The notes beneath the pieces are model-generated. The model was given only the letters and a program-made list of their open reading frames with translations, made no database searches and was not told where the DNA came from. A program made the translations under genes and the position numbers. A stretch of 64,000 nucleotides of DNA, taken from the NCBI GenBank assembly GCA_030066085.1, contig JASJCI010000007.1:28363-92362 (forward strand). Direction: 5' to 3'. The DNA comes from Gammaproteobacteria bacterium (GTDB taxonomy: Bacteria > Pseudomonadota > Gammaproteobacteria > GCA-001735895). Of this stretch, positions 316 to 61,574 are shown one piece after another (the first letter of the stretch is position 1; the number at the start of each line of letters is the position of its first letter).

Positions 316-462
316 GCCCGCTCCCGCCGAACCAGGACCAGGCGCAATCCGGCCGGCTCTCATTGCCGGCCGCTTTGGCGCGTGCGCATGTTTAAGCGGT
401 TGATCCGGGGCTCGCGGGCAGCGTATTCTATGCGCCCTTGCCAGCCGATAAAAAACAACGTC

Positions 463-1830: not shown

Positions 1831-1856
1831 GCATTCAAACAACGCGAGAGTCAAAA

Positions 1857-42500: not shown

Positions 42501-43817
42501 TCAGCAGTCGAGCGTGTTCTGGCGTTCCCAGCTGGACAGGTGCGTGGTGTAGCTGTCCCAGGCCTGCATCTTGAGCTTGACGTAGGCATCGACCAGCTCG
42601 TCGCCGAAGCCTTCGCGGATCACCTTGTTCTTGTCGAACTGGCGGATCGCATCGAGCAGGTACAGCGGCAGCTTGCGCGCGCTCTTGGCGCGGTGACCTT
42701 CTTCGTACATGTTCAGGTGCGTCGGTTCGCCCGGATCGCGCTTGTTGGTGATACCGTCGAGCATCGCCATCAGTACGCCCGCCTGCAGCAGGTAGGGATT
42801 GGCGGCGCCGTCCATCAGGCGCAGCTCGAAACGGCCGTCTTCCGGTACGCGGATCATGTGCGTGCGGTTGTTGCCGGCATAGGTCACCGCGTTCGGCGAC
42901 CAGGTTGCGCCCGACATGGTGCGCGGCGCGTTGATACGCTTGTAGCTGTTGACGGTCGGGTTGAAGATCGCCGCGAGGTCACTGGCGGTATGCATGATGC
43001 CGCCCAGCGCCTGGTAGGCCAGTGGCGACAGGCCAAGACCACGCGGATCCTTCTTCGCGGTCGCGAACAGGTTTTTCTTGCCGGCGCGATCCCACAGCGA
43101 AACGTGCGCGTGACAGCCGTTGCCGGTCAGGTGGGTAAACGGCTTGGGCATGAAGGTCGCGCGCAGGCCGTGGTTCTCGGCGATCGACTTGACCATGAAC
43201 TTGAAGAACACGTGCTTGTCGGCGGTGCGCAGCGCGTCGTCGTAATCCCAGTTCATTTCGAACTGGCCGTTGGCGTCCTCGTGATCGTTCTGGTACGGAT
43301 TCCAGCCGAGCTTGATCATCACGTCGCAAATTTCGCTGACCACCGGGTACTGACGCATCAGCGCCTGCTGGTCGTAACAGGGCTTGGCCTGGGTATCGTG
43401 CGTATCAGCGATCGCGGTACCGTCTTGATTGGTCAGGAAATACTCGCATTCGACACCGGTCTTCATGCGGTAGCCCTTCTTCTGTGCCTTGGCCAGCTGA
43501 CGCTTCAATGCGACCCGCGGCGAAGCCTCGACTTCCTTGCCGTCCATCCACAGGTCACCGGCAACCCAGCCGATCTCCGGGTTCCACGGCAGCTGGATCA
43601 GGCTGTCGGGATCGGGAATCGCAAACATATCGGGATGTGCCGGCGTCATGTCGAGCCAGGCGGCGAAGCCGGCGAAACCCGCGCCGTCTTTCTGCATGCC
43701 CTTGATCGCGCGCGTCGGCACCAGCTTGGCGCGCAGCACGCCGAACAGGTCGACCCAGCTGACGAGGAAATACTTGATCTTCTTGGTCTTGGCGATCGCT
43801 TCGAGATCTTTAGCCAC
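42501..43817 (-). CDS. gmaS: gamma-glutamylmethylamide synthetase-like (GlnT-type GS)
   Basis: DLFGVLRAKLVP, GAGFAGFAAWLDMTPAHPD resemble alphaproteobacterial GmaS; GGGAGG RBS before GTG 43817. Confidence 0.8.
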   Translation of the reverse strand: MAKDLEAIAKTKKIKYFLVSWVDLFGVLRAKLVPTRAIKGMQKDGAGFAGFAAWLDMTPAHPDMFAIPDPDSLIQLPWNPEIGWVAGDLWMDGKEVEASPRVALKRQLAKAQKKGYRMKTGVECEYFLTNQDGTAIADTHDTQAKPCYDQQALMRQYPVVSEICDVMIKLGWNPYQNDHEDANGQFEMNWDYDDALRTADKHVFFKFMVKSIAENHGLRATFMPKPFTHLTGNGCHAHVSLWDRAGKKNLFATAKKDPRGLGLSPLAYQALGGIMHTASDLAAIFNPTVNSYKRINAPRTMSGATWSPNAVTYAGNNRTHMIRVPEDGRFELRLMDGAANPYLLQAGVLMAMLDGITNKRDPGEPTHLNMYEEGHRAKSARKLPLYLLDAIRQFDKNKVIREGFGDELVDAYVKLKMQAWDSYTTHLSSWERQNTLDC

Positions 43818-43874
43818 GTGATACCCTCCCAAAGGTTGTTATGGTTGTGCCGCAGGCGGCCATTCTAAGCCAGT

Positions 43875-46394
43875 TCAGTGGCGATTCAAACTGCCCGACA
43901 TCGGCACGCCCGCCGCCTTCGATACCGCGAGCGTAATCGCGCGCAGGTCTTCCGGTTCGAGGTTGTGCACGTTGGTCTTGCCGGTGCAGCGCGCCATCAT
44001 CGCGGCTTCCGCGTTGAAGGCCTGCAGCAGGTTGAAACAGCGCTCCTCGCGTTCGGCCTGGTCGAGGTCGGCATGATATTCGGGGGTACCGCTGGAGACG
44101 TCCGCGCCGAGCGCCAATGCCGCCGCGGCACCGATGACGACCGCGTTGGCGCCGAGCGCGAGCATCTTGGCGCTGTCGGTGCCGGTGCGCAGGCCGCCGA
44201 AGTAAACCAGGTCGATGTCTTCCTCGCGGTTGAGCGCGCGCAGCTGACCGACCGCGTGATTCAGGATCGACAGGTCCGGCGCACCGCCGAGTTCCGCACC
44301 GATTTCAGGCAGGCCGTCGCCGGCATCGAGCACGAGGAAGTCGAGTTCCTGCTCGAGCGCAAACGGGATCGCCTGCGCCAGGTTGCGGTGATTGACGACC
44401 AGGCCAACGGGTTGATCTTCACGCGCGCGCGTCACCTTGCCGGCGAGCATCGCCACGCTGGCGCCGAATGCGACCGCGTCGGCCGCGGCATCCGCCGCAT
44501 CGTCGGCCAGCTGGATCCAGCGCGCGCCGTCACCTGGCGCTCGGCGGCCGAAACAGGCGGCGCCATGGTCGCCAATTGCCTTCGCGTAGGCCGCGCGAAT
44601 CTCGGCGGGCGCATCGTCGAGCCCGGTCACCAGGAACGGGATATCGAGCTTGAGGCTCTCGATCGCGCCGAGATCGGTGCGCGTGACGCAGTCCTCGCGG
44701 TAGGGGTCGATGACCAGCCGCGACAGGTTGGCGGGCAGGAACACGAGGTCGTCGAGCGTGGCCTCGTGATCCTCGCCGAACGGATTGTCTCGGTTGTTCA
44801 ACCGCTCCTGCAGGATACTGGCCTCGATCTCGACCTGGTTGGGCGTGATGCGCGACATCGCGAAAATCGACTCGCGGCTGCCGACCGTGTAGTCGGCCGA
44901 ACCGGTTTCGGCATCGCAGCGGAAACAGCGCGCGGCCTCGAACTTCGCCTCGGCTTCGGTATACGTGGATTCGATCTCGGGGAACTCGACCGGTACCTCG
45001 CCGAGCCCGTGAAACGGCTGTTCCACGCGCGGGTTCAGTTCCCAGGCCGGATCATTGCAGATGGCGACGCGCCGCGTGCGGTAAGGTGTACGGTAGGACA
45101 GCGGGGTTTCGTTGCCTTCGAGGAAGGCTTTCATGTAGTAAGCCGCGCGGTGGCCCTGGTACATCGCCTCGACTATGGTCGAACCGCCGAAGGCGCCGTC
45201 GCCGGCGGCGAACACCCGCGGATCATCGGTGCGCATACCCTCGAGACGGGTGCGTACCCGGTCCCAGTCCATCAGGCCGAGTTCATCGAGTTCGCCGCAT
45301 TCGGCCTTCTGCCCGACCGCGGCGATCACCAGCCCGCATTCGATATCGTGCTCCGAACCCTCGACGTTAATCGGCCGACGGCGGCCGTCTTCGTCGGGCT
45401 CGCCGAGCTCGGTGCGCACGCAGCGCAGCGCGCCGTCGACCACGGCCACCGGCTGCGTGTTGTAAACGATCTCGATGCCCTCCTCGATTGCACCGTGCAG
45501 TTCCTCGCGACGTGCCGGCATGGCTTCGTAGTCACGGCGGTAAACCACCTTGACGTTTTTTACGCCCGGCAGGCGTTTGGCCACGCGACAGGCGTCCATC
45601 GCGACGTCGCCGCCGCCGATGACGAGCACGGTTTCGGGCAGCGTCGGCCGCGCGCCGGCATTGACCTCGTAGAGAAAGCCAACACCGTCGCGCACGAAGG
45701 GTTCGGACTCGTCGGGCACGCCCATGGGTTTACCGACGAAGGCACCGATCGACAGCAGCACCGCGGCGTGTCGCTGTTTCAGTTCATCGAGCGACACGTC
45801 ACGGCCGAGCGCACTGTTCAAATGCACCTTGATCCCGGGGCAGTGCGCCATCATGCGATCGATGTCCTGCTGCACCGCGGATTCCGGCAGGCGGAAGCGC
45901 GGGATACCCCAGTACATCATGCCGCCGAGCTTGTCGGTCGCTTCGTGCAGGTGGACCTCGTAGCCGGCTTCGGCCAGGTCGTGCGCGGCGGTCATTCCCG
46001 CGGGACCTGCACCCACGATAGCAACGGTTTTTTGCTGGCTGACTTCGACTGGCGGCAGCGCGTAACCCGGTCCCAGCGCCTCCAGCACGTAACGCTTCAG
46101 GTTACGAATTGCAATCGCGCCGTCGCTGTCGGCGCGGCGGCAGGCGGGTTCGCAGGGCGCGTCGCAGACGCGACCGCAGATCGCGCTGAACGGGTTGGTC
46201 GCGGTGATCGCTTCGAGCGCTTCCTCGTTCTTGCCTTCCCAGATGTAGGCGATGTAGGACGGCGCATCGGTACCGATCGGACAAGCCACCTGGCACGGCG
46301 CCGGCACGTAATGAATGTCGGCGGTATCGTCCTCGAGGTCCGGCGTGGCCGTGATCGAGAACTGGTAATCGGCGTCGGAAATCTTCATCGTCAA
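43875..46394 (-). CDS. fusion of a GltD-like Fe-S/FAD/NAD(P)H module and a degenerate glutamate-synthase FMN-barrel domain
   Basis: CQVACP..CGRVCDAPCEPAC, GAGPAG, GGGDVAMD, EAARCFRC; C-terminal LDDLVFLPANLSRL...GKTNVHNLEPEDL. Confidence 0.85.
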   Translation of the reverse strand: MTMKISDADYQFSITATPDLEDDTADIHYVPAPCQVACPIGTDAPSYIAYIWEGKNEEALEAITATNPFSAICGRVCDAPCEPACRRADSDGAIAIRNLKRYVLEALGPGYALPPVEVSQQKTVAIVGAGPAGMTAAHDLAEAGYEVHLHEATDKLGGMMYWGIPRFRLPESAVQQDIDRMMAHCPGIKVHLNSALGRDVSLDELKQRHAAVLLSIGAFVGKPMGVPDESEPFVRDGVGFLYEVNAGARPTLPETVLVIGGGDVAMDACRVAKRLPGVKNVKVVYRRDYEAMPARREELHGAIEEGIEIVYNTQPVAVVDGALRCVRTELGEPDEDGRRRPINVEGSEHDIECGLVIAAVGQKAECGELDELGLMDWDRVRTRLEGMRTDDPRVFAAGDGAFGGSTIVEAMYQGHRAAYYMKAFLEGNETPLSYRTPYRTRRVAICNDPAWELNPRVEQPFHGLGEVPVEFPEIESTYTEAEAKFEAARCFRCDAETGSADYTVGSRESIFAMSRITPNQVEIEASILQERLNNRDNPFGEDHEATLDDLVFLPANLSRLVIDPYREDCVTRTDLGAIESLKLDIPFLVTGLDDAPAEIRAAYAKAIGDHGAACFGRRAPGDGARWIQLADDAADAAADAVAFGASVAMLAGKVTRAREDQPVGLVVNHRNLAQAIPFALEQELDFLVLDAGDGLPEIGAELGGAPDLSILNHAVGQLRALNREEDIDLVYFGGLRTGTDSAKMLALGANAVVIGAAAALALGADVSSGTPEYHADLDQAEREERCFNLLQAFNAEAAMMARCTGKTNVHNLEPEDLRAITLAVSKAAGVPMSGSLNRH

Positions 46395-48373
46395 CCCGCC
46401 TTGCGATCGAGCAGTTCGAGACCGGTCAGCGGTCGGTGATCGGTCTTGTGTTCCGGCCGATAGGGCAGGCCGGTGATATCCGCCGCTTCCGGGGTCAGCG
46501 CCACCAGGTCGCCGCGTCCCACCTTGTGCACGTCGTCATGGCCGAGCGCCCTGGTGATCGCGGCGATCTGCCAGCGCAGCGACTCGAAGTAGCGATGCAT
46601 GTTCATCGCCTGCTTGTCGAGATCGTAGCGCGCCTCGTGTTCGGGATCCTGGGTTGCGATGCCGACCGGGCAGGTACCGACGTGGCACTGCATGCAGGCA
46701 ATACAGCCGCCGGCAATAATGGCCGCGGTACCGACCGAGGTGCAGCTGGCGCCGAGCGCAAGCATCTTGACGATATCGACACCGTCCTTGAGTCCGCCCA
46801 TCATCACCAGGTCCATGTCGTCGCCGGCGTCGATCTCGCGCAGGCCGTCGATCGCTTCCTGTACCGCCGCGAGGGTCGGGATACCGACGTTCTCGAGCAC
46901 CTCGGTGCTGGCCGCGCCGGTGGAGCCCTGCAGGCCGTCGAGCTCGACGAAGTCGAAACCGTCCTTGTAGGCGATCTTGATGTCGTCATTGACCCGGCCG
47001 GCGCCCATCTTGATGCCGATCGGCACCTTGTGGAAGGTCGCTTCACGGAATTCCTGCAGCTTGATGACGAGATCGTCCGCGCCGAGCACGTCGGGGTGAC
47101 GCGACGGCGAGCGCAGGTCGATGCCGACCGGGATACCGCGGATCGCGGCCAGTTCCGGTGTAACCTTCTTCGCCATCAGCTGCCCGCCGAGACCCGGCTT
47201 GGCGCCTTGCGAGATGTAGATCTCGATCGCGTCGGCGCGCTGCATGTCCTTGACGTTCCAGCCGAGCCGCCCCGACAGGCACTGGAAGATCAGCTGGTCG
47301 GCTTCGGCGCGCTGCTCGTCGAGCATGCCGCCCTCGCCGGTATTCTCGGAGATGCCGGACAGGCGCGACGCGCGCGCGAGCGCGATCTTGACCTTGCGCG
47401 ACAGCGCGCCGAAGCTCATCGGCGCGATCATGACCGGCATCGACAGGCTGATCGGTTTGGCGCCGAAACGCCCGCCGACCGTGGTCTTCAGGTTGATGTC
47501 CTTCAGCTCCTCGGGATCCGGCGAGATGGTCGAGATGTCCCGCGCGAAGGCAATGTCGTTCAGGTGCGGCACCGGCTTGGACGCGCCGTAGCCACGGATT
47601 CGGTAACGCCCGACTTCACCCTTGATCCAGATATCTTCCTGCACCTTCGGGTTCCAGTAGTTGGACGATTTCGACGACACGAAAAACGGCTGCGGACGAT
47701 GCCGCGGCTCGGCCTTGGCGTAACGCAGTTTTTTGCCGGCATTGACGACCTTGGTGAAGTCGCCATCGAATTTCAGTTCGAAACGGTCGAGAAATTCCCT
47801 GATCTCGTCGCGCTCCTGCGCGTCCATGTCGACGATCATGGTGTCGTTGCCGAGGCTCTCGATCTTGCCGCCGACAAAAATCTCGCCGGCGCTCATGTCC
47901 TGCCCGACCTTGGCCGCGGCGTCACCGAGGATGATGATGCGCCCGCCGTACATCATGTAGCCCGCCATGAACGCGGCATTGCCGCCGCAGCACAGCGTGC
48001 CGGCCTTCATGACCTGGCCGGCGCGGCTGCCCATATTGCCGCGCACGACGATTTCGGCGCCGCGGATGGCAACGCCCGGAATCGCGCCGGCGTTGCCGCC
48101 GACCACCACGGTACCGTTGTAGATGTTGTCTCCAACCGCCCAGCCCGCGTTGTGCTCGATTTCGAAGCGCGCGCCGTCGGACAGACCACCGCAGAAATAA
48201 CCGGCGGACCCGCGCACGCGCACGGTAACGGGGTTGTCGACGACCAGCCCGACACCGATATTGTGGCGCGCATCGGGATTGACGATTTCGATGTCCTGCC
48301 CGTCGGCGGCAAGACTGTGGATTTTTTGATTGGCCGCGGTAATCGCGACCTGGCTTAAATCGATCTGGCCCAT
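46391..48373 (-). CDS. fused GXGXG + FMN-binding glutamate-synthase domains (MgsB-MgsC-like fusion)
   Basis: N-terminal GXGXG repeats; MSFGALS, QGAKPG, C-x5-C-x4-C (CIACMQCHVGTC). Confidence 0.88.
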   Translation of the reverse strand: MGQIDLSQVAITAANQKIHSLAADGQDIEIVNPDARHNIGVGLVVDNPVTVRVRGSAGYFCGGLSDGARFEIEHNAGWAVGDNIYNGTVVVGGNAGAIPGVAIRGAEIVVRGNMGSRAGQVMKAGTLCCGGNAAFMAGYMMYGGRIIILGDAAAKVGQDMSAGEIFVGGKIESLGNDTMIVDMDAQERDEIREFLDRFELKFDGDFTKVVNAGKKLRYAKAEPRHRPQPFFVSSKSSNYWNPKVQEDIWIKGEVGRYRIRGYGASKPVPHLNDIAFARDISTISPDPEELKDINLKTTVGGRFGAKPISLSMPVMIAPMSFGALSRKVKIALARASRLSGISENTGEGGMLDEQRAEADQLIFQCLSGRLGWNVKDMQRADAIEIYISQGAKPGLGGQLMAKKVTPELAAIRGIPVGIDLRSPSRHPDVLGADDLVIKLQEFREATFHKVPIGIKMGAGRVNDDIKIAYKDGFDFVELDGLQGSTGAASTEVLENVGIPTLAAVQEAIDGLREIDAGDDMDLVMMGGLKDGVDIVKMLALGASCTSVGTAAIIAGGCIACMQCHVGTCPVGIATQDPEHEARYDLDKQAMNMHRYFESLRWQIAAITRALGHDDVHKVGRGDLVALTPEAADITGLPYRPEHKTDHRPLTGLELLDRKAG

Positions 48374-49263
48374 GTCTGGTGCGTCCCGGGCGCCGGTTCG
48401 GTGGAATTGATGGATTGCCCCGGGAACAGCCGGTTGAGGCTGACTTCCTCGGAGGCGATGGCGATCATGTCATCGGTTTCGTACAGCACCATCGGCTTGG
48501 CCGCGAGGTTGTCCTTGGCATAACCGATCTCGTCTTTGGTCGAGACCAGGAAAGAAAAGGTGCCGTCGAGATCCTCGATCGCGGTTTCGAGCACGCTGTC
48601 GAGCGTTTCGCCCTGCGACAGCTTGTCGGCGAGGTAGACCGCGACCAGTTCGCTGTCGTTATCGGTATGGAAGCTGTAGCCGCGACGTTCGAGCCGGCGG
48701 CGCATTTTCCAGTAATTGGTGATCTGGCCGTTGTGCACGATCGCGATGTCTTCGAAGCCGGTTGCCCAGAAAGGGTGCGCCGCCTCGGGCCGCACCGCGG
48801 ATTCGGTCGCGAGACGGACATGACCGATGCCGTGGGTGCCGGTGAATTCACCGACGTTGTAGAGGTCATCAAGCTCGTGCGCGGTGCCGTCGTCCTTGAT
48901 GATGTCGAGCGTATGCCCGACCGAAACCAGCTTGGCGTGCTCCTCGATGTCCTTGGTAAACTCGAGCAGGTCACCGTCGAAGCGCACCGCGATCTGGTAG
49001 GAACAACCGACGGACTGTTCGCTCTCGATAGCGGCATCGTGGCGCGCCAGCAGGCTCGCGATGTTGTCGACCGCGTCCTTGCGCGCAGCCTCGTCGGTCG
49101 GCACGATAAAACGCAGCTGCAGCAAATCCCTGGTTTCGCCGTACATCGCGAAGCCGGTGCTGTCGGGGCCGCGATGCTGGCAACCGTCGAGCATTTCGAT
49201 CAGCGTCTTGCCGATTTCATGCGCGCCCTGGGTCTTGAACAGTACGCCTGCAATTCCACACAT
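48355..49263 (-). CDS. class II glutamine amidotransferase (MgsA-like)
   Basis: N-terminal MCGI, HRGPDS, GHVRLATES, HNGQI, DSE. Confidence 0.88.
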   Translation of the reverse strand: MCGIAGVLFKTQGAHEIGKTLIEMLDGCQHRGPDSTGFAMYGETRDLLQLRFIVPTDEAARKDAVDNIASLLARHDAAIESEQSVGCSYQIAVRFDGDLLEFTKDIEEHAKLVSVGHTLDIIKDDGTAHELDDLYNVGEFTGTHGIGHVRLATESAVRPEAAHPFWATGFEDIAIVHNGQITNYWKMRRRLERRGYSFHTDNDSELVAVYLADKLSQGETLDSVLETAIEDLDGTFSFLVSTKDEIGYAKDNLAAKPMVLYETDDMIAIASEEVSLNRLFPGQSINSTEPAPGTHQTWARSI

Positions 49264-49338: not shown

Positions 49339-49365
49339 ATTTTGTTTCCTATCAGGAAACAAAAT
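49339..49365. promoter_or_regulatory. candidate operator
   Basis: ATTTTGTTTCCT-atc-AGGAAACAAAAT perfect 12-bp inverted repeat 10 nt upstream of the -35. Confidence 0.5.
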
Positions 49366-49997
49366 CAGCTCGATGTCGCCTCCGAAACGATTATCGACAG
49401 GTAGCGACAGGGCAGTTCCTGGATCTGATCGGGCCCGTGAGAAGCCTCGGCATCGAAAAACAGGGTATCACCGGGACCCAGCGTGTAGGTTTTGTTGGCA
49501 TGCCGATAGGCAACCTGCCCCTCGAGCATGTAAATCAGCTCCATGCCGGTGTGTTGAAACACAGGAAACACCTCGGACTTGTCGGTAATCGTGATCAGGT
49601 AGGGTTCGATCGTGTAGGGTTTGCCGATCGTGTGCCCGAGCAACTGGTACTGATGGCCGGCGCCCGAGCCCCGGCGCTCGATTTGCAGACCCTCGCCAGC
49701 AGGCGTGTAGGTCACGTCGCGCTGCTCTTCGTAACCTCGAAAAAACGAGGTCACCGGGACCTGCAGCGCGGCCGCGAGCGAGGTCAGCGTAGCCAGCGAC
49801 GGCGAGGTCTGGCCGTTTTCGATCTTGGACAACATGCCGGTCGACAGGCGCGCCTGCTTGGCCAGCATCGCCACGGTAAGGTTGAGGCGCTTGCGCTGGC
49901 TGCGTACCTGCTTGCCGATCGCGACCTCCAGCGCCTTGACGCTGTGCTGTCCGGCAACGGGTTCGATACTGGCGTTGTCTGTACCGGCGTCGGCCAT
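49365..49997 (-). CDS. XRE-family HTH regulator with cupin domain
   Basis: LSTGMLSKIENGQTSPSL HTH; HTGMELIY..GDTLFFDA..H cupin; start placed at ATG 49997. Confidence 0.88.
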   Translation of the reverse strand: MADAGTDNASIEPVAGQHSVKALEVAIGKQVRSQRKRLNLTVAMLAKQARLSTGMLSKIENGQTSPSLATLTSLAAALQVPVTSFFRGYEEQRDVTYTPAGEGLQIERRGSGAGHQYQLLGHTIGKPYTIEPYLITITDKSEVFPVFQHTGMELIYMLEGQVAYRHANKTYTLGPGDTLFFDAEASHGPDQIQELPCRYLSIIVSEATSS

Positions 49998-50215
49998 GTC
50001 CAGAATAGGGTCGTCGCAAAGCTTTATCAGAACCCAGCAGGCGCGCGATTGCAAATCGCTCAGCGCCACCGGTCGACGGATCGTACCAGGACTGTACCAA
50101 TAAAACGCGGCAGCCATGTTGACCGTCGCGGAGTAATTCCCTACTCTTGACAGGCTGGATTACAACCCACGACCGATAATAAAACCCTATTAGAATCAAA
50201 TATTTGGAGGACAGC

Positions 50216-51559
50216 ATGTCAAAGCGTGTAGCAGTCATCGGGGCCGGTCCAAGCGGCCTTGCACAGTTGAGGGCGTTTCAGTCAGCGAAGGAGAAGGGCG
50301 CCGAGATTCCCGAGGTCGTCTGCTTCGAAAAGCAGGAAGACTGGGGCGGCCTGTGGCGCTACACCTGGCGCACCGGCCTCGACGAGTTCGGCGAACCGGT
50401 CCACGGCAGCATGTATCGCTACCTCTGGTCCAACGGCCCGAAAGAAGGCCTCGAATTCGCCGATTACTATTTCGAGGACCACTTCGGCAAGCCGATCGCA
50501 TCCTACCCGCCGCGCGCCGTCCTGTTCGACTACATCGAGGGCCGGGTCAAGAAAGCCGGCGTGCGCCCGTGGATCCGCTTCCGCTCACCGGTACGCCACG
50601 TCACCCACGACGACGCCAGCGGCATGTTCACCGTGACGGTGCACGACCTCGAGAAAGATCATGAGTACAGCGAGGATTTCGATCACGTGGTGGTCGCCAG
50701 CGGGCATTTCTCGACCCCGAACGTACCCCACTTCGACGGTTTCGAAAGCTTCAACGGCCGCGTGCTGCACGCGCACGATTTCCGCGACGCGATGGAGTTC
50801 AAGGACAAGGATATCCTGATCATCGGCACCTCTTACTCGGCCGAGGACATCGGCTCGCAGTGCTGGAAATACGGCTGCAAGTCGGTCACGGTATCGCACC
50901 GCACGGCACCGATGGGCTACAAGTGGCCGGACAACTGGAAAGAAGTGCCGCTGCTGCAAAAGGTCGAGAAGAACACCGCTTATTTCAAGGACGGTACCAC
51001 CGCCGAGGTCGACGCGATCATCCTCTGCACCGGCTACCTGCACCACTTCCCGTTCATGGAGGAAAGCCTGAAACTGCGTACCGCCAATCGCCTGGCCGCG
51101 GCCAACCTGTACAAGGGCGTGGTGTTCTGCGACAACCCGAAGCTGTTCTACCTCGGCATGCAGGACCAGTGGTACACCTTCAACATGTTCGATGCCCAGG
51201 CCTGGTACGTGCGCGACATCATCCTGGGCCGCATCGACATACCCGCGGACAAGGCCGCGCTGCTGGCCGACGTCAAGGCGCGCGAGGATGCCGAAGACGC
51301 GCTCGAGGACGACTACGGCTGCATCCGCTACCAGGGCGCCTACACCCAGGAGCTGATCGACGAGACCGACTACCCGAGCTTCGACATCGAGGCCGCGAAC
51401 CAGGCTTTCTTCGAGTGGAAGAAGCACAAGAAGGAAAACATAATGACCTTCCGTAACCACGGTTACACGTCGCCGATGACGGGTAACAAGGCGCCACCGC
51501 ACCACACGCCGTGGAAGGATGCGCTCGACGATTCGCTGGAGAGTTACCTGCAGACCTGA
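50216..51559 (+). CDS. tmm: bacterial flavin-containing monooxygenase, trimethylamine monooxygenase-like
   Basis: [30 protein letters not shown], FxGxxxHxHDF, GTSYSAED. Confidence 0.88.
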
Positions 51560-53348: not shown

Positions 53349-54653
53349 CTAGCTCTTGATGTCTTCGGGGTAAGCCATGGCCTCGATCTCGACGTCCATG
53401 CCGACTTCCTGGACGCCATCGCTGGCGCGCAGAATGCCCAGGGCCTTGAACAGCCAGCCGAAGACAAATCCGGGAATGAACCCGAGCAACAGCATGACAA
53501 TCATGCCCTTGAACTGGCCCATGAAGGTAATCGGCGGAATCTCGTTGGCCGCGAATTGCGGGTAACCGCCGAGGAAGATACCGGCGAACAACAGACCGAG
53601 GATACCGCAGGTACCGTGTACCGAGACCGCGCCGACCGCGTCGTCGATCCCCATCTTCTCGACGAACTGGGCCGAGATCGGGCCGATGACACCGCCGATG
53701 AAAGCGAGGATGAACGCGAGACCCGGGTAGTACATGTCCATACCGGCAGCAGCCGAAATAACGCCGCACAGCGCGCCGGACATCATCCAGAACGGATCAC
53801 GGGTCTTGGTGTAGGCGCCGATCATACCGCCCGCAACCGCCATCAGCGTGTTGAACGCAATGGTCGACAGCGTGGTCGGCATGCCGTAGATATTGGCCCA
53901 CTCAGTGGCGTACCAGCTGAGCCCGGTGCCCGGGAAGATCACGCAGCCGCCGAGGAAGCCGAAGAAGCCGACCACGATCAGCATCAGGCCGACCATCGTC
54001 ATCGGCATGCTGTGGCCGCGGATCACGTTGGCCGAGCCGTCGGCGTTGAACTTGCCGATGCGCGGTCCGAGGTGGATCAGTACGCCGAGCGCGAAGAAGC
54101 CCGAGATCATGTGCACGACGCCGGATGCGCCGAAGTCGTGGTAACCCCATTCGACGACCATCCAGCCGGCGTAATGCCAGCCCCAGGACGCGGACAGGAT
54201 CCAGACCACCGAACCGAGGATCACGGCGAGAATAATGAACGCCGTCATGCGGATGCGCTCGATGACCGCGCCCGACATGATCGATGCCGTGGTACAGGCA
54301 AACAGCGTGAACGCGCCCCAGAAAACACCGGTGGCATTATCTTCGAGGTTCGGACCCATGTTTTCGCCCCAGGGCACACCGCCCGCGCCGGCTTCGAAGT
54401 CCGGCGTGAAACCCTGGTACATCGCCAGGTAGATCCACCAGCCGAACATCCAGAAGGTCGGAATCATGTAGGCGAAGGCGAGGACGTTCTTGGTACCGGC
54501 GGCCAGCGTATGCTTGACCCGCGATGCTCCCATCTCGTACATCATGAAGCCCGCGTGGATCAGGATCATGATTGCCGTACACCAGTAATAATAAACCTCG
54601 AGGTTTATCTCGTTGGCCGCAGCGATCGCGGCCTGTAGTTCTTCAGGTGTCAT
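53349..54653 (-). CDS. Amt/Mep/Rh-family channel 1
   Basis: SGAVIER, HDFGASGVVH, DDAVGAVSVHG; start ATG 54653. Confidence 0.92.
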   Translation of the reverse strand: MTPEELQAAIAAANEINLEVYYYWCTAIMILIHAGFMMYEMGASRVKHTLAAGTKNVLAFAYMIPTFWMFGWWIYLAMYQGFTPDFEAGAGGVPWGENMGPNLEDNATGVFWGAFTLFACTTASIMSGAVIERIRMTAFIILAVILGSVVWILSASWGWHYAGWMVVEWGYHDFGASGVVHMISGFFALGVLIHLGPRIGKFNADGSANVIRGHSMPMTMVGLMLIVVGFFGFLGGCVIFPGTGLSWYATEWANIYGMPTTLSTIAFNTLMAVAGGMIGAYTKTRDPFWMMSGALCGVISAAAGMDMYYPGLAFILAFIGGVIGPISAQFVEKMGIDDAVGAVSVHGTCGILGLLFAGIFLGGYPQFAANEIPPITFMGQFKGMIVMLLLGFIPGFVFGWLFKALGILRASDGVQEVGMDVEIEAMAYPEDIKS

Positions 54654-54931
54654 TATTGCTCCCCCAAATACGTAGGTTAAAACTCCATTCGACTTATCGC
54701 GCCGTCCTGGGCTGTGCCGTCCTGTCCTTCGGACGCGCACCTCCCGGTTGTTTTCCGGAGGTTATTTTTATCCGACTGCACCTTATTGCTACAGTCGCAC
54801 CCGCTGGATGTTAAACCAGTCGACCCGCATTAGCTATCATATTGTTTTTATTAAGATTATTGGTTCAAAAATGGTCCACTCGCCAAACCGGAAAACTGCC
54901 TAAACGCCTGTATTTACTGGCTTTTATCGGC

Positions 54932-55964: not shown

Positions 55965-57383
55965 TCAGGCCGCAGATCCGCGCTCTGCTTCCTCGCGGAT
56001 GGCTTGCGCCACTTCGTCGGCATCCGCCGCACGCGCCGACTCGTAATTGATGTCCAGGCCGACCATTTCGATTTCACGCGGTATACGCAACATGCCCATA
56101 CCGTTCAGGATCTTGGATACGATCCAGGCCGGCACGAAACCGAGCACGAAGAACATGATGATCGCACCGGCGAACTGGCCCCATGGCGATATCGAGGCAT
56201 AACCCTCGAACGGTGACGACGGATAGCCCCATAACATGAAACCGGCGATGACCATGCCGTAAAAACCGGCGTAACCGTGTACGGCGACCGCGCCGACCGC
56301 ATCGTCGATCTTGAAGCGGTTTTCGACCCAGTAGTGCATCTTGTAGGCGATGAACGCACCGCCGCCGCCGATCAGCATGGCCTGGATGGGGTGGTACAGG
56401 TCGTTACCCGAGGATGCGCCGATCACGCCCGCGAGCCCGCCCGAGTAGGTCCAGAACGCATCGCCGTCGGACACCAGGTAAGCCACCATCAGGCCGCCGG
56501 ACAGCGACATCAGGAAGTTGAACGTGATCGCGGACAGCGTGGTGGGCTGCAGGTAGATATTGGTGGCGCTGAAGAAACTCTTGCCCTCGACATCGAGCAT
56601 CGCCGAACCGTAGACGTCGATGACCGGGATGTTACAGGCCACGTAGAATCCCCAGAAGCCGGTGTAGATCAGGAACAGGCCAATGGTGACCAGCCACGGG
56701 TTATGGGGATTGATGTTGCGCGGGGTACCGTCGGCGCGAAACTTGCCGATACGCGGACCCAGCACCAGCAGCACGCCGAGCGCGAAACCGCCCGCAATCG
56801 CGTGGATGACACCGGACGCGTAGGCATCGTGGTAACCGAGCTTCTGCACCATCCAGCCATTCCACGACCAGCCCCAGGACGCGTCGATGATCCAGGTGAA
56901 GGAACCGATTACAACCGCCAGGATCCAGAAAGCGCTCGGCCGGATCCGCTCGATTACCGCGCCCGAGACGATCGACGCCGCGGTCCATGAAAACAGCAGG
57001 AAGGCCGCCCAGAACACGCCGTTGATGCGCGCCCAGTAAGCGGTATCGTCGACCGTCAGCGTATCCTGGTGCACGCCGTTGCCCATGTGCGCACCCATCA
57101 ACTCGCTCCAGGGCGTGGCCCAGGGCGCGTCGACCAGCGGCCCGATGATCCAGGGGCCGTTGACGAAAGCGAAGTAGATCCACCAGCCGAAGAAAAAGAA
57201 GGTAATCGTTACCAGCGGGATCAGCATGGTGTTCTTCATCAGCGTGTGGGTGTGGTTTTTGTAGCGCGAGGCGCCCACCTCGTACATGCAGAAGCCGACG
57301 TGAATCAGGAACATGAACACGACGGTGACCCAGTAATAGAACTCGGTAAAGATGATTCCGAGCGACGTTAACTCATTATCCAT
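55965..57383 (-). CDS. Amt/Mep/Rh-family channel 2
   Basis: SGAVIER, HDAYASGVIH, DDAVGAVAVHG; start ATG 57383. Confidence 0.92.
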   Translation of the reverse strand: MDNELTSLGIIFTEFYYWVTVVFMFLIHVGFCMYEVGASRYKNHTHTLMKNTMLIPLVTITFFFFGWWIYFAFVNGPWIIGPLVDAPWATPWSELMGAHMGNGVHQDTLTVDDTAYWARINGVFWAAFLLFSWTAASIVSGAVIERIRPSAFWILAVVIGSFTWIIDASWGWSWNGWMVQKLGYHDAYASGVIHAIAGGFALGVLLVLGPRIGKFRADGTPRNINPHNPWLVTIGLFLIYTGFWGFYVACNIPVIDVYGSAMLDVEGKSFFSATNIYLQPTTLSAITFNFLMSLSGGLMVAYLVSDGDAFWTYSGGLAGVIGASSGNDLYHPIQAMLIGGGGAFIAYKMHYWVENRFKIDDAVGAVAVHGYAGFYGMVIAGFMLWGYPSSPFEGYASISPWGQFAGAIIMFFVLGFVPAWIVSKILNGMGMLRIPREIEMVGLDINYESARAADADEVAQAIREEAERGSAA

Positions 57384-57551
57384 TCTGACCTCCTCGAATG
57401 GTTTTAACTTGTCGTTGACCGGCGTTGCACCGACCAAGCCCCCATTTGATGCATTTTTTGTTGCTGATCTTCACTCACAAGAAACATATCAATTATGAGT
57501 GAAAATCATGCACCACTTATAACCCAATACCCACAATAATTTCAACGTAAT

Positions 57552-58337: not shown

Positions 58338-59675
58338 TTAGAAACGGTTCATGTCGGGGCGACCGACGGTGTACTGCGTGCCCGCCATCGGCACCTGCGC
58401 ACAGGCCGAAGCCTCGAGCGTCAGCGCCGCCAGGTCTTCCGGCTCCAGCGAGTGAATGTTGGTCTTGCCGCAGGCGCGAGCGAAGAGCTGTGCCTCGATG
58501 GTCAGCGTGTGCAGGAAGTTGTAGACGCGTTCCGCCGCCTCGTCGGGGTCGAGGCGCTTGCGCAGCTCCGGATCCTGGGTGGCGACACCGACCGGGCAAC
58601 GGCCGGTATGGCAGTGGTAACAGTAGCCGGCTTCGACACCCATTTCCTTCGGAAAATCGGCTTCCGGAATATCCTTGTTGCAGTTCAGCGCCATCATCAC
58701 CGAGTGACCGATGGCCACCGCGTCGGCACCGAGCGCAATCGCCTTGGCCACGTCGGCGCCGTTGCGAATGCCGCCGGCATAAACCAGCGAGATGCGGCCC
58801 GACATGCCGACGTCGTCCAGCGCCTGGCGCGCCTGGCGAATCGCAGCAATACCGGGAACACCGGTATCCTCGGTCGCGAGGTGCGGGCCGGCACCGGTGC
58901 CGCCTTCCATGCCGTCCATGTAAATCGAGTCTGGCCCCGTTTTTGCAGCCATGCGCACGTCATCGTAGACGCGCGCCGCGCCGAGCTTGAGCTGGATTGG
59001 AATCTGGCCGTCGGTGGCTTCGCGGATCTCCTGGATCTTGAGCGCGAGGTCATCCGGCCCCATCCAGTCCGGATGGCGTGCGGGAGAGCGCTGGTCGATA
59101 CCGGCCGGCAGCGAGCGCATCTCGGCGACCTGGTCGGTCACCTTCTGTCCCATCAGGTGTCCGCCGAGACCGACCTTGCAGCCCTGGCCGATGAAAAATT
59201 CGCAGGCATCGGCGAGGCGCAGGTGATTCGGGTTGAAACCGTAGCGCGACTGGATGCACTGGTAGAGCCATTTCGACGAATAGCGGCGCTCGTCAGGGAT
59301 CATGCCGCCCTCGCCCGAGCAGGTCGCGGTACCGGCCATGGTGGCACCGCGCGCGAGCGCGGTCTTGGCTTCGTAGGACAAAGCGCCAAACGACATGCCG
59401 GTGACGTAGACCGGGATATCGAGCTCCAGCGGCCGCTTGGCCTCGGGACCGATGACGGTCTTGGTCAGGCACTTCTCGCGGTAGCCCTCGATGACGAAAC
59501 GCGTCAGCGTGCCAGGCATAAAAGTCAGGTCGTCCCAGGTCGGGATTTTCTTGAACAGCGAAAAACCGCGCATGCGGTAGCGGCCGAGTTCCGACTTGAC
59601 GTGGATATCGTTAATCACCTCCGGCGGGAAGATAAAGCTTTTGCCGAGGTTGTAGCGATCGGATTCGTTAGACAT
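58338..59675 (-). CDS. FMN-binding glutamate-synthase-family protein (MgsC-like)
   Basis: MSFGALS, GQGCKVG, DQRSPARHPDW, CYHCHTGRCP. Confidence 0.9.
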   Translation of the reverse strand: MSNESDRYNLGKSFIFPPEVINDIHVKSELGRYRMRGFSLFKKIPTWDDLTFMPGTLTRFVIEGYREKCLTKTVIGPEAKRPLELDIPVYVTGMSFGALSYEAKTALARGATMAGTATCSGEGGMIPDERRYSSKWLYQCIQSRYGFNPNHLRLADACEFFIGQGCKVGLGGHLMGQKVTDQVAEMRSLPAGIDQRSPARHPDWMGPDDLALKIQEIREATDGQIPIQLKLGAARVYDDVRMAAKTGPDSIYMDGMEGGTGAGPHLATEDTGVPGIAAIRQARQALDDVGMSGRISLVYAGGIRNGADVAKAIALGADAVAIGHSVMMALNCNKDIPEADFPKEMGVEAGYCYHCHTGRCPVGVATQDPELRKRLDPDEAAERVYNFLHTLTIEAQLFARACGKTNIHSLEPEDLAALTLEASACAQVPMAGTQYTVGRPDMNRF

Positions 59676-59703
59676 CTTGTTTCTCCAGTTTTCTCGGCGG
59701 CGC

Positions 59704-60531
59704 TTACAGCACGAGTTTCTTCTCGGTGGGCTCGAGGTTGTCGTAGTTCCACAACTGCTTGCCCGAGGTCAGTTTGACGATCTTGTCGATACCGTTGGGC
59801 GCTTCCATGCCGTACTGATCAAGCTTGGCCTTCAGATAACGCTGGTCGAGATCGGTCAGCTCGGTTTCGACGCAATCGACGCCGAGGCTCGAAATCTTGC
59901 CGGCCACGTAGATGGTACCGTCGTACATCGAGTCGCCGAGGTTATCGCCGGCATCGCCGAGGATGATCATGCGACCGCGCTGCATCATGAAGCCGGTAAA
60001 GGCGCCGACGCTTTCGCCGACGATAATGGTGCCGCCCTTCTGGTCGATGCCGACACGTGCGCCCGCCTGGCCCTTGCACACCAGGTCACCGCCGCGAATC
60101 GCGGCGCCGAACAGCGAGCCCGCGTTCTTTTCGATCACGACCGTGCCGGCCATCATGTTCTCGGCGCAGGACCAGCCGACGCGGCCGGTGATGCGTACGT
60201 TGGGGCCGTCGATCAGACCGCAGCCAAAATAGCCGAGGCTGCCCTCGAAGGTCAGGTTGAGGCGATTGAGAATACCAACGCCCAGCGAATGCTTGGCGCG
60301 CGGGTTTTTCACCGTAATCGAACCGTGACCGGATTGCATCAGCTCGCGAATCTTGACGTTGATTTGCTCGATACTCAGGTCGGCCGCATCAAAGTCGGCG
60401 GCCTTGTCGTAATCAACCTCGTAGGACCACGGGTAAACGAAGTTTTCGTCCTCGGCAGCCGAAAAGAAAACCTGCTGCGTACGGCCCCGGAGCTGCTCTT
60501 CGTGCAGCCCCATGTCATGGGATGTGCTCAC
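59704..60531 (-). CDS. GXGXG-domain protein (MgsB-like)
   Basis: GXGXG beta-helix repeats; GTG start overlaps the upstream TGA. Confidence 0.88.
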   Translation of the reverse strand: MSTSHDMGLHEEQLRGRTQQVFFSAAEDENFVYPWSYEVDYDKAADFDAADLSIEQINVKIRELMQSGHGSITVKNPRAKHSLGVGILNRLNLTFEGSLGYFGCGLIDGPNVRITGRVGWSCAENMMAGTVVIEKNAGSLFGAAIRGGDLVCKGQAGARVGIDQKGGTIIVGESVGAFTGFMMQRGRMIILGDAGDNLGDSMYDGTIYVAGKISSLGVDCVETELTDLDQRYLKAKLDQYGMEAPNGIDKIVKLTSGKQLWNYDNLEPTEKKLVL

Positions 60532-61469
60532 GCTGCCGCCCATACTTTTACCTCCCCTTGGTAAGGATCCCAGGTGTCTATTTCACGCGGGAAAATACTG
60601 CGAATGGCCACTTCTTCCGAAGCCAGGCCGACGAATTCGTCACTCTCGTATAAAACCATCGGTTTCGCCGCCATGACGTCCTTTGCCATGCCGAGCTGGT
60701 CGCTGGTTGCGACCAGGTAAGTAAACACACCGTCCAGCTCGTCGATCGAACGCGTCATCGCGGCCTCGAGGTTGTCGCCGCGATCGATGCGGTCGGCCAC
60801 GTAAACCGCGATCAACTCCGAATCGCAGTTCGACATAAAGCGGTGGCCGCGGCGCTCGAGATCGCGGCGGTTGGTCCAGTAGTTGGTCAGCTGGCCGTTG
60901 TGTACCACCGACACGTCGTTGAACGGGTAAGCCCAGTAGGGATGGGCGCTGCGGATGTCGACATCCGACTCGGTCGCCATGCGGGTGTGGCCGATGGCGT
61001 GGGTGCCGACGAAACCTTCCAGCCCGTACTGCCCGGAGACCACGCTGGCATCGCCCAGGTCCTTGATCAGTTCGAGCCCCTTGCCGACCGACAGGATTTC
61101 GACGCCGTCGATGTCCTCGATGTAGTCGATCAGTCGCTTCAGATCACCGCCGAACTTGAAGTGATAGCGGTAGGCATATTCGGTCGCGTCTTCGCGCGCG
61201 GTGACGTCCGCACCCATTTCCTCCAGGCGCGTATCGACCGCGGCCTTGCGCTCGATAACCTGGCGGTGAATGTCGAAACCGCTCGCCATGTCTTCCTGTT
61301 CGGCGACCTTGAAACGGAGCACGTAGACACCCTCCTCGCCTTTGCCGTACAGGGCGAAACCGGTCGAGTCCGGACCGCGGTGCTTCAGCGCCTGAAGCAT
61401 CTGCGTCATCTCGCTACCGATATCGCTGGTGACGCCGCCTTTCCAGATCAATCCAGCTATACCACACAT
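60528..61469 (-). CDS. class II glutamine amidotransferase (MgsA-like)
   Basis: MCGI, HRGPDS, GHTRMATES, HNGQL, DSE. Confidence 0.88.
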   Translation of the reverse strand: MCGIAGLIWKGGVTSDIGSEMTQMLQALKHRGPDSTGFALYGKGEEGVYVLRFKVAEQEDMASGFDIHRQVIERKAAVDTRLEEMGADVTAREDATEYAYRYHFKFGGDLKRLIDYIEDIDGVEILSVGKGLELIKDLGDASVVSGQYGLEGFVGTHAIGHTRMATESDVDIRSAHPYWAYPFNDVSVVHNGQLTNYWTNRRDLERRGHRFMSNCDSELIAVYVADRIDRGDNLEAAMTRSIDELDGVFTYLVATSDQLGMAKDVMAAKPMVLYESDEFVGLASEEVAIRSIFPREIDTWDPYQGEVKVWAAA

Positions 61470-61574
61470 AAGTATTCCTCGCTGAGGTGTTGCGCGACGC
61501 TCCGGCGGCGCGCGTAATATGAAAAAAGTCCCCGGGCCATCATCACCGACCCGGGAAACAACCCTTGGAGATTC

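What the first reader, a model, noticed from the sequence alone, without database searches (positions are those of the whole stretch)
43875..46394. GltD-like reductase fused to a degenerate (pseudo-enzyme) FMN-barrel domain
Seen: the N-terminal ~540 aa form an Fe-S/FAD/NAD(P)H GltD-like module. The C-terminal ~300 aa (about 44800-43875) parallel the neighbouring FMN domains (LDDLVFLPANLSRLVIDPYREDC versus WDDLTFMPGTLTRFVIEGYREKC; GKTNVHNLEPEDL versus GKTNIHSLEPEDL) but lack MSFGALS, QGAKPG and the Cys cluster. Inference: an inactive barrel that heterodimerises with the active MgsBC and docks the electron donor. That would allow reductive transfer (GMA + 2-oxoglutarate + NAD(P)H to NMG + Glu). 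I know of no description of this architecture.
Basis: partly seen in the sequence, partly recalled or inferred. Interest (0 to 1): 0.75.

Follow-up and report, generated by a model that had tools for sequence, protein, structure and literature searches.

The report
Reductase fused to stripped glutamate-synthase barrel
This gene encodes an NAD(P)H-reductase subunit with an inactive copy of the glutamate-synthase barrel at its tail; it belongs to a widespread, unstudied three-gene enzyme that most likely passes methylamine nitrogen reductively onto 2-oxoglutarate, which may answer where N-methylglutamate synthase gets its electrons.

Summary
The gene (43875-46388, minus strand; real start probably ATG 46388, 837 aa) encodes a complete GltD-type module: 8 invariant Cys for two [4Fe-4S] clusters, plus FAD and NAD(P)H folds. 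A ~300-aa TIM barrel follows. It is a clear homologue of MgsC-type glutamate-synthase FMN barrels (BLASTP 4e-27 to the window's own 445-aa MgsC-like protein). It has lost MSFGALS, SGEGG, QGAKPG, GGTGA and the Fe-S Cys loop, and keeps only the phosphate-loop motif GGLRTGTD.

The fusion is not an artefact. More than 1300 homologues of 833-841 aa exist, 523 species genomes encode a relative of the barrel, and two independent metagenomes cover the junction.

In related loci the gene always follows a class-II amidotransferase (55/55) and a fused GXGXG-FMN protein (58/58). Natural fusions join the stripped barrel to the catalytic protein, with and without the reductase. Two framing motifs of canonical MgsC are present only in the stripped barrel and never in the catalytic one.

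The downstream ligase is a GmaS orthologue. Other lineages carry mgdABCD beside the cassette.

Best reading: an NAD(P)H-driven N-methylglutamate synthase ("methyl-GOGAT"), whose stripped barrel plays the part of the GltB central domain. No biochemistry exists. It is a new variant of a known kind.

The parts
43875..46388 (-). Gene for the 837-aa reductase plus stripped-barrel protein. The ORF caller's TTG at 46394 overlaps the upstream stop codon; the probable start is ATG 46388.
44904..46307 (-). GltD-like module (residues ~30-497): Fer4_20, FAD and NAD(P)H Rossmann folds, and a trailing RCxRC. The 8 invariant Cys are C34, C38, C73, C77, C81, C85, C490 and C493.
43878..44777 (-). Stripped glutamate-synthase-type TIM barrel (residues ~540-839). 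It keeps the entry motif FLPANLSRLVIDPYREDC, the phosphate loop GGLRTGTDSAK and the exit motif ARCTGKTNVHNLEPEDL. It has no MSFGALS, QGAKPG, GGTGA or Cys loop.
46391..48373 (-). 660-aa fused GXGXG beta-helix plus catalytic FMN barrel (MgsB-MgsC-like), with CxxCxxCxxxxC. Its stop codon lies 2 nt before the next gene's ATG.
48355..49263 (-). 302-aa class-II (Ntn, MCGI...) amidotransferase, MgsA-like.
42501..43817 (-). Gamma-glutamylmethylamide synthetase (GmaS) orthologue. The probable start is GTG 43817 (438 aa).
   Evidence: PMC7948447
49365..50117 (-). XRE-HTH plus cupin regulator at the head of the operon. It is conserved with the cassette in many related loci.
50204..51559 (+). Trimethylamine monooxygenase (Tmm), transcribed divergently from the operon.

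Best explanation
The gene encodes the electron-input subunit of a three-protein relative of glutamate synthase. The complex consists of an Ntn amidotransferase (302 aa), a fused GXGXG/catalytic FMN barrel (660 aa), and this 837-aa protein.

Shown by sequence:
- Its N-terminal two thirds are a complete GltD-type NAD(P)H:FAD:2x[4Fe-4S] module.
- Its C-terminal third is a paralogue of the MgsC-type FMN barrel. It has lost all catalytic, flavin-ring and Fe-S loops, but keeps two framing motifs that the catalytic barrel of this system has lost.

Inferred:
- The stripped barrel packs against the catalytic barrel, in the way the truncated central domain packs against the synthase domain in GltB.
- This places the reductase's clusters next to the four-Cys cluster of the catalytic barrel.
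- Electrons would then run NAD(P)H, FAD, 2x[4Fe-4S], Fe-S cluster, FMN.
- With the adjacent GmaS, the enzyme hydrolyses gamma-glutamylmethylamide, channels methylamine to bound 2-oxoglutarate and reduces the N-methylimine.
- The net reaction is GMA + 2-OG + NAD(P)H to N-methylglutamate + Glu, that is, a 'methyl-GOGAT' form of N-methylglutamate synthase.
For: Domains and motifs.

The fusion is conserved. More than 1300 homologues exist, nearly all 833-841 aa. 523 species genomes encode a relative of the barrel. GltD is fused in 66 of 68 loci that have room for it.

Synteny: the GXGXG-FMN gene is present in 58/58 loci and the amidotransferase in 55/55.

Natural fusions: P0132 is GXGXG-FMN-GltD-barrel, and P0138 and L071 are GXGXG-FMN-barrel.

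Motif partition: 0/62 catalytic barrels carry the entry or exit motifs. 73/79 stripped barrels carry both, and 0/79 carry a catalytic motif. Canonical MgsC-type proteins (P0126, P0184) carry all of them.

Tree: the stripped barrels form one clade (100/100) on a long stem from an MgsC-like node. Several subclades match those of the catalytic-barrel tree, though many inner branches of both are unresolved.

Electron wire: all 8 Cys are present in 67/67 reductase modules, and CxxCxxCxxxxC in 62/62 catalytic barrels.

AlphaFold2: the barrel core has pLDDT 80-95 and eight strands, with helices 2 and 3 missing. The two invariant motifs have pLDDT below 50 in the monomer, as expected for interface segments.

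Methylamine link: the downstream ligase matches the crystallised Rhodovulum GmaS (7cql) at 4e-182, and carries its Trp-for-Glu flap and FAGFAAW loop (PMC7948447). tmm, folD, fhs and amt are neighbours. mgdABCD-like genes lie beside the cassette in L005, L037, L038, L046, L055, L069, L070, L080, L084 and L089.

Literature: the NMG synthase electron donor is unknown (PMC6237917). The GltB central domain is a truncated barrel that lines the ammonia tunnel (PMC8097209).
Against: - No biochemical, genetic or expression data exist for any member, and no RNA runs hold the stretch.
- No mgdABCD lies in this 64-kb window, and the rest of the genome could not be searched. The fate of NMG in this organism is therefore unverified.
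- 11 of 31 fully flanked loci have no GmaS, Mgd or Tmm gene within 8 kb. Some members may use glutamine or another gamma-glutamyl amide.
- The stripped barrel keeps an invariant GG(L/V)R(T/S)GTD..K phosphate loop, which could still bind FMN or another phosphorylated ligand.
- No sequence similarity to the GltB central domain was found, and no complex model could be computed.
Confidence: 0.55

Rival explanations
1. It is an alternative, three-polypeptide NADPH-glutamate synthase (true GOGAT). It would use glutamine for ammonia assimilation, and the link to methylamine would only be one of neighbourhood.
For: All GOGAT catalytic motifs are present in the amidotransferase and the catalytic barrel. 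The reductase is 35% identical to E. coli GltD. 11 of 31 fully flanked loci lack any methylamine gene nearby. Ammonium-transporter genes are frequent neighbours.
Against: In this window and throughout its gammaproteobacterial clade the next gene is a GmaS orthologue, with the GmaS-specific replacements of the ammonia-binding residues (PMC7948447). mgdABCD flanks the cassette in at least ten loci. The catalytic barrel is closer to MgsC-type proteins (39% over 429 aa) than to GltB (32%).
Confidence: 0.15
2. The C-terminal barrel is not inert. It would bind FMN or another phosphorylated cofactor and serve as an extra redox or catalytic site, for example a second flavin station or a second half-reaction.
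For: The phosphate-loop motif GG(L/V)R(T/S)GTD..AK and the following LGA..V.G are invariant or nearly so across 26 full-length and 21 domain sequences. All 21 domain sequences still hit PF01645 and PF01070 over strands 6-8. Fold matches are to FMN- and IMP-binding barrels.
Against: Every motif that contacts the isoalloxazine ring or the substrate in glutamate synthase barrels is missing in 79/79. These are MSxGAxS, SGEGG, the Lys of QGAKPG, and GGTGA. There is no Cys loop to wire it to the chain. It is the fastest-evolving part of the cassette: 48% identity where the catalytic barrel keeps 71%, and end branches 3-5 times longer. It also occurs in enzymes without any reductase.
Confidence: 0.15
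3. The barrel is a regulatory or sensor domain. It would bind 2-oxoglutarate, GMA or another effector and gate electron input, without being a structural part of the catalytic core.
For: The domain is degenerate but conserved, with a retained ligand-type loop. It occurs in several fusion contexts.
Against: Its co-occurrence with the catalytic barrel is strict (58/58) and the MgsC framing motifs are split between the two barrels in a complementary way. This points to a constitutive structural role. No known sensor fold or motif was detected.
Confidence: 0.1

Closest known systems
Bacterial NADPH-dependent glutamate synthase GltBD (EC 1.4.1.13; Azospirillum brasilense 1EA0, 2VDC, 6S6S; E. coli GltB/GltD)
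   Same: It has the same parts list: an Ntn amidotransferase, an FMN synthase barrel with an Fe-S cluster, a GXGXG beta-helix, a GltD reductase with FAD and two [4Fe-4S] clusters, and one truncated, non-catalytic alpha/beta barrel (the central domain). The reductase matches 6s6s_E and 2vdc_G by fold (TM 0.70-0.73 on the target) and E. coli GltD at 35% identity.
   Different: The parts are spread over three polypeptides in a different order. The truncated barrel is attached to the reductase instead of lying between the amidotransferase and the synthase domain. It shows plain sequence homology to MgsC-type barrels and none to PF04898. The RCxRC Cys pair lies after the Rossmann domains instead of at the N-terminus. 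The partner ligase is GmaS, not GlnA.
N-methylglutamate synthase MgsABC / GlxBCD (EC 2.1.1.21) of the N-methylglutamate pathway
   Same: It has an amidotransferase, a GXGXG domain and an FMN barrel of the same subfamily (39-43% identity to the window's own canonical-type set). It sits in an operon with gmaS, and beside mgdABCD in other lineages.
   Different: MgsB and MgsC are fused. The catalytic barrel lacks the MgsC entry and exit motifs. A fourth module is present (GltD reductase plus stripped barrel). Canonical MgsABC has no known reductase, and its electron donor is unknown (PMC6237917).
Dihydropyrimidine dehydrogenase (DPD, 1H7W)
   Same: It has a GltD-like Fe-S/FAD/NADPH module followed in the same chain by a TIM barrel. 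Foldseek aligns 900-1000 columns.
   Different: The DPD barrel is a catalytic, DHODH-type FMN barrel followed by two more [4Fe-4S] clusters. Here the barrel is glutamate-synthase-type, stripped, and has no clusters. The high rmsd (about 22 A) shows a different domain arrangement in the model.
NfnB / NfnABC and StnABC GltD-like subunits
   Same: These are the best fold matches for the reductase module (9bov_A, 9n5u_A, 8oh5_C, 4ylf_B).
   Different: They belong to electron-bifurcating transhydrogenases. They have no amidotransferase, GXGXG domain or glutamate-synthase barrel partner.

Membership tests
GltD-type reductase (glutamate synthase small-subunit family) | N-terminal Fer4_20 region with ligands for two [4Fe-4S] clusters | tested here: met
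   PF14691 at 1.4e-21. 8 Cys are invariant in 26 homologues and present in 67/67 loci. One pair (RCxRC) is displaced to after the Rossmann domains.
GltD-type reductase (glutamate synthase small-subunit family) | FAD and NAD(P)H Rossmann folds of the adrenodoxin-reductase type | tested here: met
   PF07992 at 4.6e-27, two GxGxxG/A regions. Fold match to 6s6s_E, 2vdc_G and NfnB.
GltD-type reductase (glutamate synthase small-subunit family) | Score above the curated equivalog cut-off for gltD or gltA | tested here: not met
   TIGR01318 scores 255.8 against a cut-off of 482.95, and TIGR01316 scores 262 against 471.75. The best match, PRK12771, scores 401 against 516. It is a related but distinct subfamily.
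Glutamate synthase FMN/synthase barrel (PF01645) | Catalytic and flavin-ring motifs (MSxGAxS, SGEGG, QGAKPG, GGTGA) | tested here: not met
   Absent in the C-domain of the window and in 79/79 relatives. The Pfam match covers only profile positions 227-313.
Glutamate synthase FMN/synthase barrel (PF01645) | Cys loop for the [3Fe-4S]/[4Fe-4S] cluster | tested here: not met
   A 30-residue deletion lies at that site; 0/79 carry it.
Glutamate synthase FMN/synthase barrel (PF01645) | Phosphate-binding loops after strands 7 and 8 | tested here: met
   GGLRTGTDSAK and LGANAVVIG are present. G734, R736, G738, T739, D740 and K743 are invariant.
GltB central domain (PF04898) | Sequence match to the family profile or to the GltB central region | tested here: not met
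   0/21 C-domains hit PF04898 at E <= 1. hhalign against E. coli GltB aligns only FMN-domain residues 1041-1103.
GltB central domain (PF04898) | A truncated alpha/beta barrel without cofactor that packs on the synthase barrel and lines the tunnel | tested here: inconclusive
   The model shows 8 strands with helices 2-3 missing. Packing could not be modelled, and support is indirect only, from fusions, synteny and motif partition.
N-methylglutamate synthase system (MgsABC with GmaS) | Amidotransferase, GXGXG and FMN-barrel proteins of the Mgs/Glx subfamily in one operon | tested here: met
   (39-43% identity to the canonical-type set at 58338-61469).
N-methylglutamate synthase system (MgsABC with GmaS) | Adjacent GmaS with the GmaS-specific active-site substitutions | tested here: met
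   7cql RhGmaS at 4e-182. GATWSP (Trp in place of the flap Glu) and the FAGFAAW loop are identical (PMC7948447).
N-methylglutamate synthase system (MgsABC with GmaS) | N-methylglutamate dehydrogenase (mgdABCD) in the same genome | not testable with these tools
   None lies in the 64-kb window, and the genome search is shut. It is present beside the cassette in other lineages.
N-methylglutamate synthase system (MgsABC with GmaS) | Formation of N-methylglutamate from GMA or methylamine | not testable with these tools
   Needs an enzyme assay.

The most novel reading that the evidence does not exclude
This family is the missing NAD(P)H-linked 'methyl-GOGAT'. With GmaS it would form a GS-GOGAT-like cycle that moves methylamine nitrogen onto 2-oxoglutarate without free ammonia, in hundreds of mostly uncultured marine, freshwater and soil lineages. 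Its stripped barrel would be an independent, still sequence-traceable repeat of the duplication-and-degeneration route thought to have produced the central domain of classical glutamate synthase. The ancestral MgsC features would be split between an active and an inactive paralogue.
Probability: 0.4. Interest if true: 0.75.

Novelty: new variant of a known kind. Interest (0 to 1): 0.62.

Why it matters
Three points make this worth following up.

- The electron donor and redox cofactors of N-methylglutamate synthase are stated to be unknown (PMC6237917). A widespread operon variant with a dedicated GltD-type NAD(P)H reductase makes that question directly testable. It also suggests that methylamine nitrogen can be assimilated reductively, in the manner of GOGAT.
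- The stripped barrel is a clear case of a pseudo-enzyme paralogue retained as an obligatory partner of its active relative. It is also a sequence-traceable analogue of the GltB central domain, whose origin is debated (PMC8097209).
- The family is in 523 species-level genomes, almost all uncultured, including a gutless-worm symbiont. It may therefore matter for budgets of marine and sediment methylated amines.

Tried and rejected
- I first suspected a dimethylamine monooxygenase DmmABC component. I rejected this after reading PMC5520151, because the Dmm subunits have other sizes and domains and nothing here matches them.
- Homology to the GltB central domain was tested in two ways and found neither time. 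The Pfam scan of 21 C-domains at E <= 1 gave no PF04898 hit. hhalign of the C-domain alignment against E. coli GltB matched only the FMN domain, weakly.
- A Foldseek search with the C-domain model returned generic FMN/IMPDH barrels (TM about 0.45-0.5). GltB was not in the top 50, so it could not decide between 'central-like' and 'FMN-like'.
- A PDB sequence search with the C-domain gave only marginal hits to alpha-hydroxy-acid oxidases over the phosphate loop.
- Whole-genome searches for mgdABCD, gltBD, tdm and dmm were impossible because the genome tools were shut.
- No RNA-seq run holds the stretch.
- Literature searches found no paper on a reductase subunit of NMG synthase, an mgs-gltD link, or an NMGS structure.
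Full report
**Anatomy of the locus**

The window is about 62% G+C. On the minus strand it carries five tightly spaced genes:
- an XRE-HTH/cupin regulator (49365-50117);
- a 302-aa class-II amidotransferase beginning MCGI (48355-49263);
- a 660-aa fusion of a GXGXG beta-helix to a full glutamate-synthase FMN barrel (46391-48373);
- the gene in question (43875-46394 as called);
- a 443-aa type III glutamine-synthetase-like ligase (42501-43832).

Trimethylamine monooxygenase is transcribed divergently (NF058570, 826 bits). FolD, formate-tetrahydrofolate ligase and two Amt genes flank the group.

The TTG 'start' at 46394 overlaps the TGA of the upstream gene. An ATG two bases after that stop codon gives MKISD..., which is the N-terminus of the 837-aa homologues. 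The ligase probably starts at GTG 43817, behind a GGGAGGG ribosome-binding site.

**Check of the observation**

Residues 30-497 are a GltD-type module:
- Fer4_20 scores 1.4e-21 and Pyr_redox_2 scores 4.6e-27.
- GltD-family NCBIfam models match end to end but below their equivalog cut-offs.
- Identity to E. coli GltD is 35% over 422 aa.
- Fold matches are to NfnB, NfnABC/Stn subunits, DPD and the Azospirillum beta subunit.

Eight Cys are invariant in 26 homologues: C34, C38, C73, C77, C81, C85, C490 and C493. They are present in 67/67 related loci. The RCxRC pair, N-terminal in E. coli GltD, lies here after the Rossmann domains.

Residues ~540-839 match PF01645 only over profile positions 227-313. 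They align to the window's canonical-type 445-aa FMN protein (58338-59675) with E = 4e-27 and 2e-13, and to the neighbouring 660-aa protein with 9e-18.

The comparison strings come from the 445-aa protein of the second operon.

The alignment with canonical barrels and E. coli GltB shows the losses:
- MSFGALS is replaced by G(L/F)D.AP.E.
- SGEGG, the KQ..SGRFG segment, QGAKPG with the long loop 4, and GGTGA are absent.
- A 30-residue deletion removes the Cys loop.

GGLRTGTDSAK and LGANAVVIG remain. AlphaFold2 models give a confident core (pLDDT 80-95) with eight strands but without helices 2 and 3, so the barrel is truncated.

**The fusion is real and widespread**

- A word-indexed search with the C-domain found more than 1300 proteins, nearly all 833-841 aa, named only 'FAD-dependent oxidoreductase' or 'glutamate synthase beta subunit-like'.
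- A full HMMER scan of 1.84 billion cluster representatives found 690 hits.
- A scan of one genome per species found 523 genomes encoding a relative. Almost all are MAGs: Gammaproteobacteria (including the Olavius algarvensis Gamma 3 symbiont), Alphaproteobacteria, Burkholderiales, Actinomycetes, Desulfobacterales, Pirellulales and Acidobacteria.
- Contigs of two independent marine-sediment metagenomes cover the junction without indels.

**Context in relatives**

In 80 fetched loci:
- the reductase is fused to the barrel in 66 of 68 with room for it;
- the fused GXGXG-FMN gene precedes it in 58/58;
- the amidotransferase precedes that in 55/55.

Of 31 loci with 8 kb on both sides:
- 20 carry a GmaS-like ligase;
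- 7 carry N-methylglutamate-dehydrogenase-type soxB/soxA genes;
- 6 carry tmm;
- 11 carry none of these.

The window's gammaproteobacterial clade always has regulator, cassette and GmaS, usually with tmm, folD, fhs and amt.

**The barrel belongs to the synthase**

Other architectures exist:
- P0132 (1486 aa, L008) is GXGXG-FMN-GltD-barrel in one chain.
- P0138 (1031 aa, five contigs; L005) and L071 are GXGXG-FMN-barrel with no reductase. L005 lies between mgdABCD-like genes and a GS-like gene.
- P0131 (313 aa, L009) looks like a free-standing barrel.

Two motifs frame canonical MgsC-type barrels: an entry motif [ST]R[LF]VI[DE].YRE.C and an exit motif GKT.[VI].[NS]LEPED. They are absent from all 62 catalytic barrels of this system. 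They are present in 73 of 79 stripped barrels. Canonical proteins (P0126, P0184) carry them together with the catalytic motifs.

In a maximum-likelihood tree the stripped barrels form one clade (100/100) on a long stem from the MgsC-like node. The catalytic barrels form another clade (99/99). Several subclades match between the two, although many inner branches of both clades are unresolved, and the stripped barrels' end branches are 3-5 times longer.

The two invariant motifs are the least confident parts of both monomer models (pLDDT below 50), as expected for segments that fold on a partner.

Together these results support an obligate active/inactive barrel pair that has largely been inherited together, to which the reductase is tethered.

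**Likely mechanism**

Shown by sequence:
- a complete NAD(P)H/FAD/2x[4Fe-4S] module;
- a CxxCxxCxxxxC loop in 62/62 catalytic barrels;
- intact amidotransferase and synthase motifs.

Inferred from glutamate synthase (PMC8097209):
- Electrons pass from the reductase clusters to the catalytic-barrel cluster and then to FMN.
- The stripped barrel plays the part of the GltB central domain. [quoted passage not shown] The downstream ligase matches the crystallised Rhodovulum GmaS at 4e-182. It has Trp in place of the flap Glu and the same FAGFAAW loop in place of the Asp50' loop (PMC7948447).

The net reaction would be GMA + 2-oxoglutarate + NAD(P)H to N-methylglutamate + glutamate. This is the reaction proposed for NMG synthase, whose redox cofactor and donor are unknown (PMC6237917).

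**Comparison with known systems**

The parts list equals that of bacterial NADPH-GltS. However, it is split and permuted, and the truncated barrel sits on the beta-type subunit.

At the sequence level the stripped barrel derives from an MgsC-type FMN barrel. It shows no similarity to PF04898 or to the GltB central region. It therefore works like a central domain at most, and is not a member of that family.

DPD shares the 'GltD module plus TIM barrel' chain layout, but with a catalytic DHODH-type barrel. Neither Pfam nor NCBIfam has a model for the family. Five full-text searches found no description of it.

**Limits**

- There is no biochemistry, no expression data and no complex model.
- No mgdABCD lies in the window, and the genome could not be searched.
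- The conserved phosphate loop leaves cofactor binding by the stripped barrel open.
- About a third of the cassettes have no methylamine genes nearby, so substrate range may vary.

Earlier notes of this scan on other genomes reach similar readings. They are AI notes, not independent evidence. My reading of the central-domain analogy was written down before I saw them.

**Verdict**

This is a new variant of a known kind of enzyme. It is of real interest because it makes the NMG synthase electron-donor question testable and because it illustrates the evolution of a pseudo-enzyme partner.

Noticed in passing
window 58338-63041 (-): A second, unfused operon encodes a GS-like protein (488 aa, 28% identical to the GmaS), an amidotransferase (313 aa), a GXGXG protein (279 aa) and an FMN protein (445 aa). 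Its FMN protein carries the catalytic motifs, a CxxCxxxxC loop and both framing motifs, so it is the canonical MgsC/GlxD type. It is the closest relative of the stripped barrel in the window.
   Followed up: partly
window 44686-44688 and 43986-43988 (residues C569 and C803 of the 839-aa numbering): Two cysteines are invariant in all stripped barrels, one in the entry motif (YRE.C) and one in the exit motif (ARCTGKT). They are also present in canonical MgsC-type proteins but absent from the catalytic barrels of this system. They could form a metal site, a disulfide or an interface contact.
   Followed up: partly
window 46388-46394 and 43815-43832: Two start codons are likely miscalled by simple ORF listing. 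The reductase gene most likely starts at ATG 46388, 2 nt after the upstream TGA. gmaS most likely starts at GTG 43817, behind GGGAGGG.
   Followed up: yes
window 22648-25068 (-): An 806-aa protein combines DAO, FAO_M, GCV_T and GCV_T_C domains, which is the dimethylglycine/sarcosine-dehydrogenase type. It is the only tetrahydrofolate-linked N-methyl amino-acid dehydrogenase candidate in the window, which has no mgdABCD. Whether it oxidises N-methylglutamate is unknown.
   Followed up: no
window 53349-54740 and 55965-57437 (-): Two Amt-family transporter paralogues (43% identical) lie between the two mgs-like operons. Amt genes also accompany the cassette in many related loci, so they may be methylammonium carriers.
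   Followed up: no
L004 9242-11977: A 659-aa gene call (P0122) sits in a 912-codon open frame beside transposase genes. It holds pieces of the FMN barrel, the reductase and the stripped barrel, so it is probably a rearranged remnant of the cassette.
   Followed up: no
window 382-3002 (+): A third GS-like ligase (482 aa) is followed by an iron-containing alcohol dehydrogenase. This suggests a further gamma-glutamyl-amine pathway in the same region.
   Followed up: no
L002/L003 12564-16558: In the alphaproteobacterial-type loci (50% identity clade) the cassette and its GmaS-like gene are followed by a class-III aminotransferase, an M20 peptidase and an oligopeptide ABC transporter instead of C1 genes. 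This hints at a different physiological amine source.
   Followed up: no
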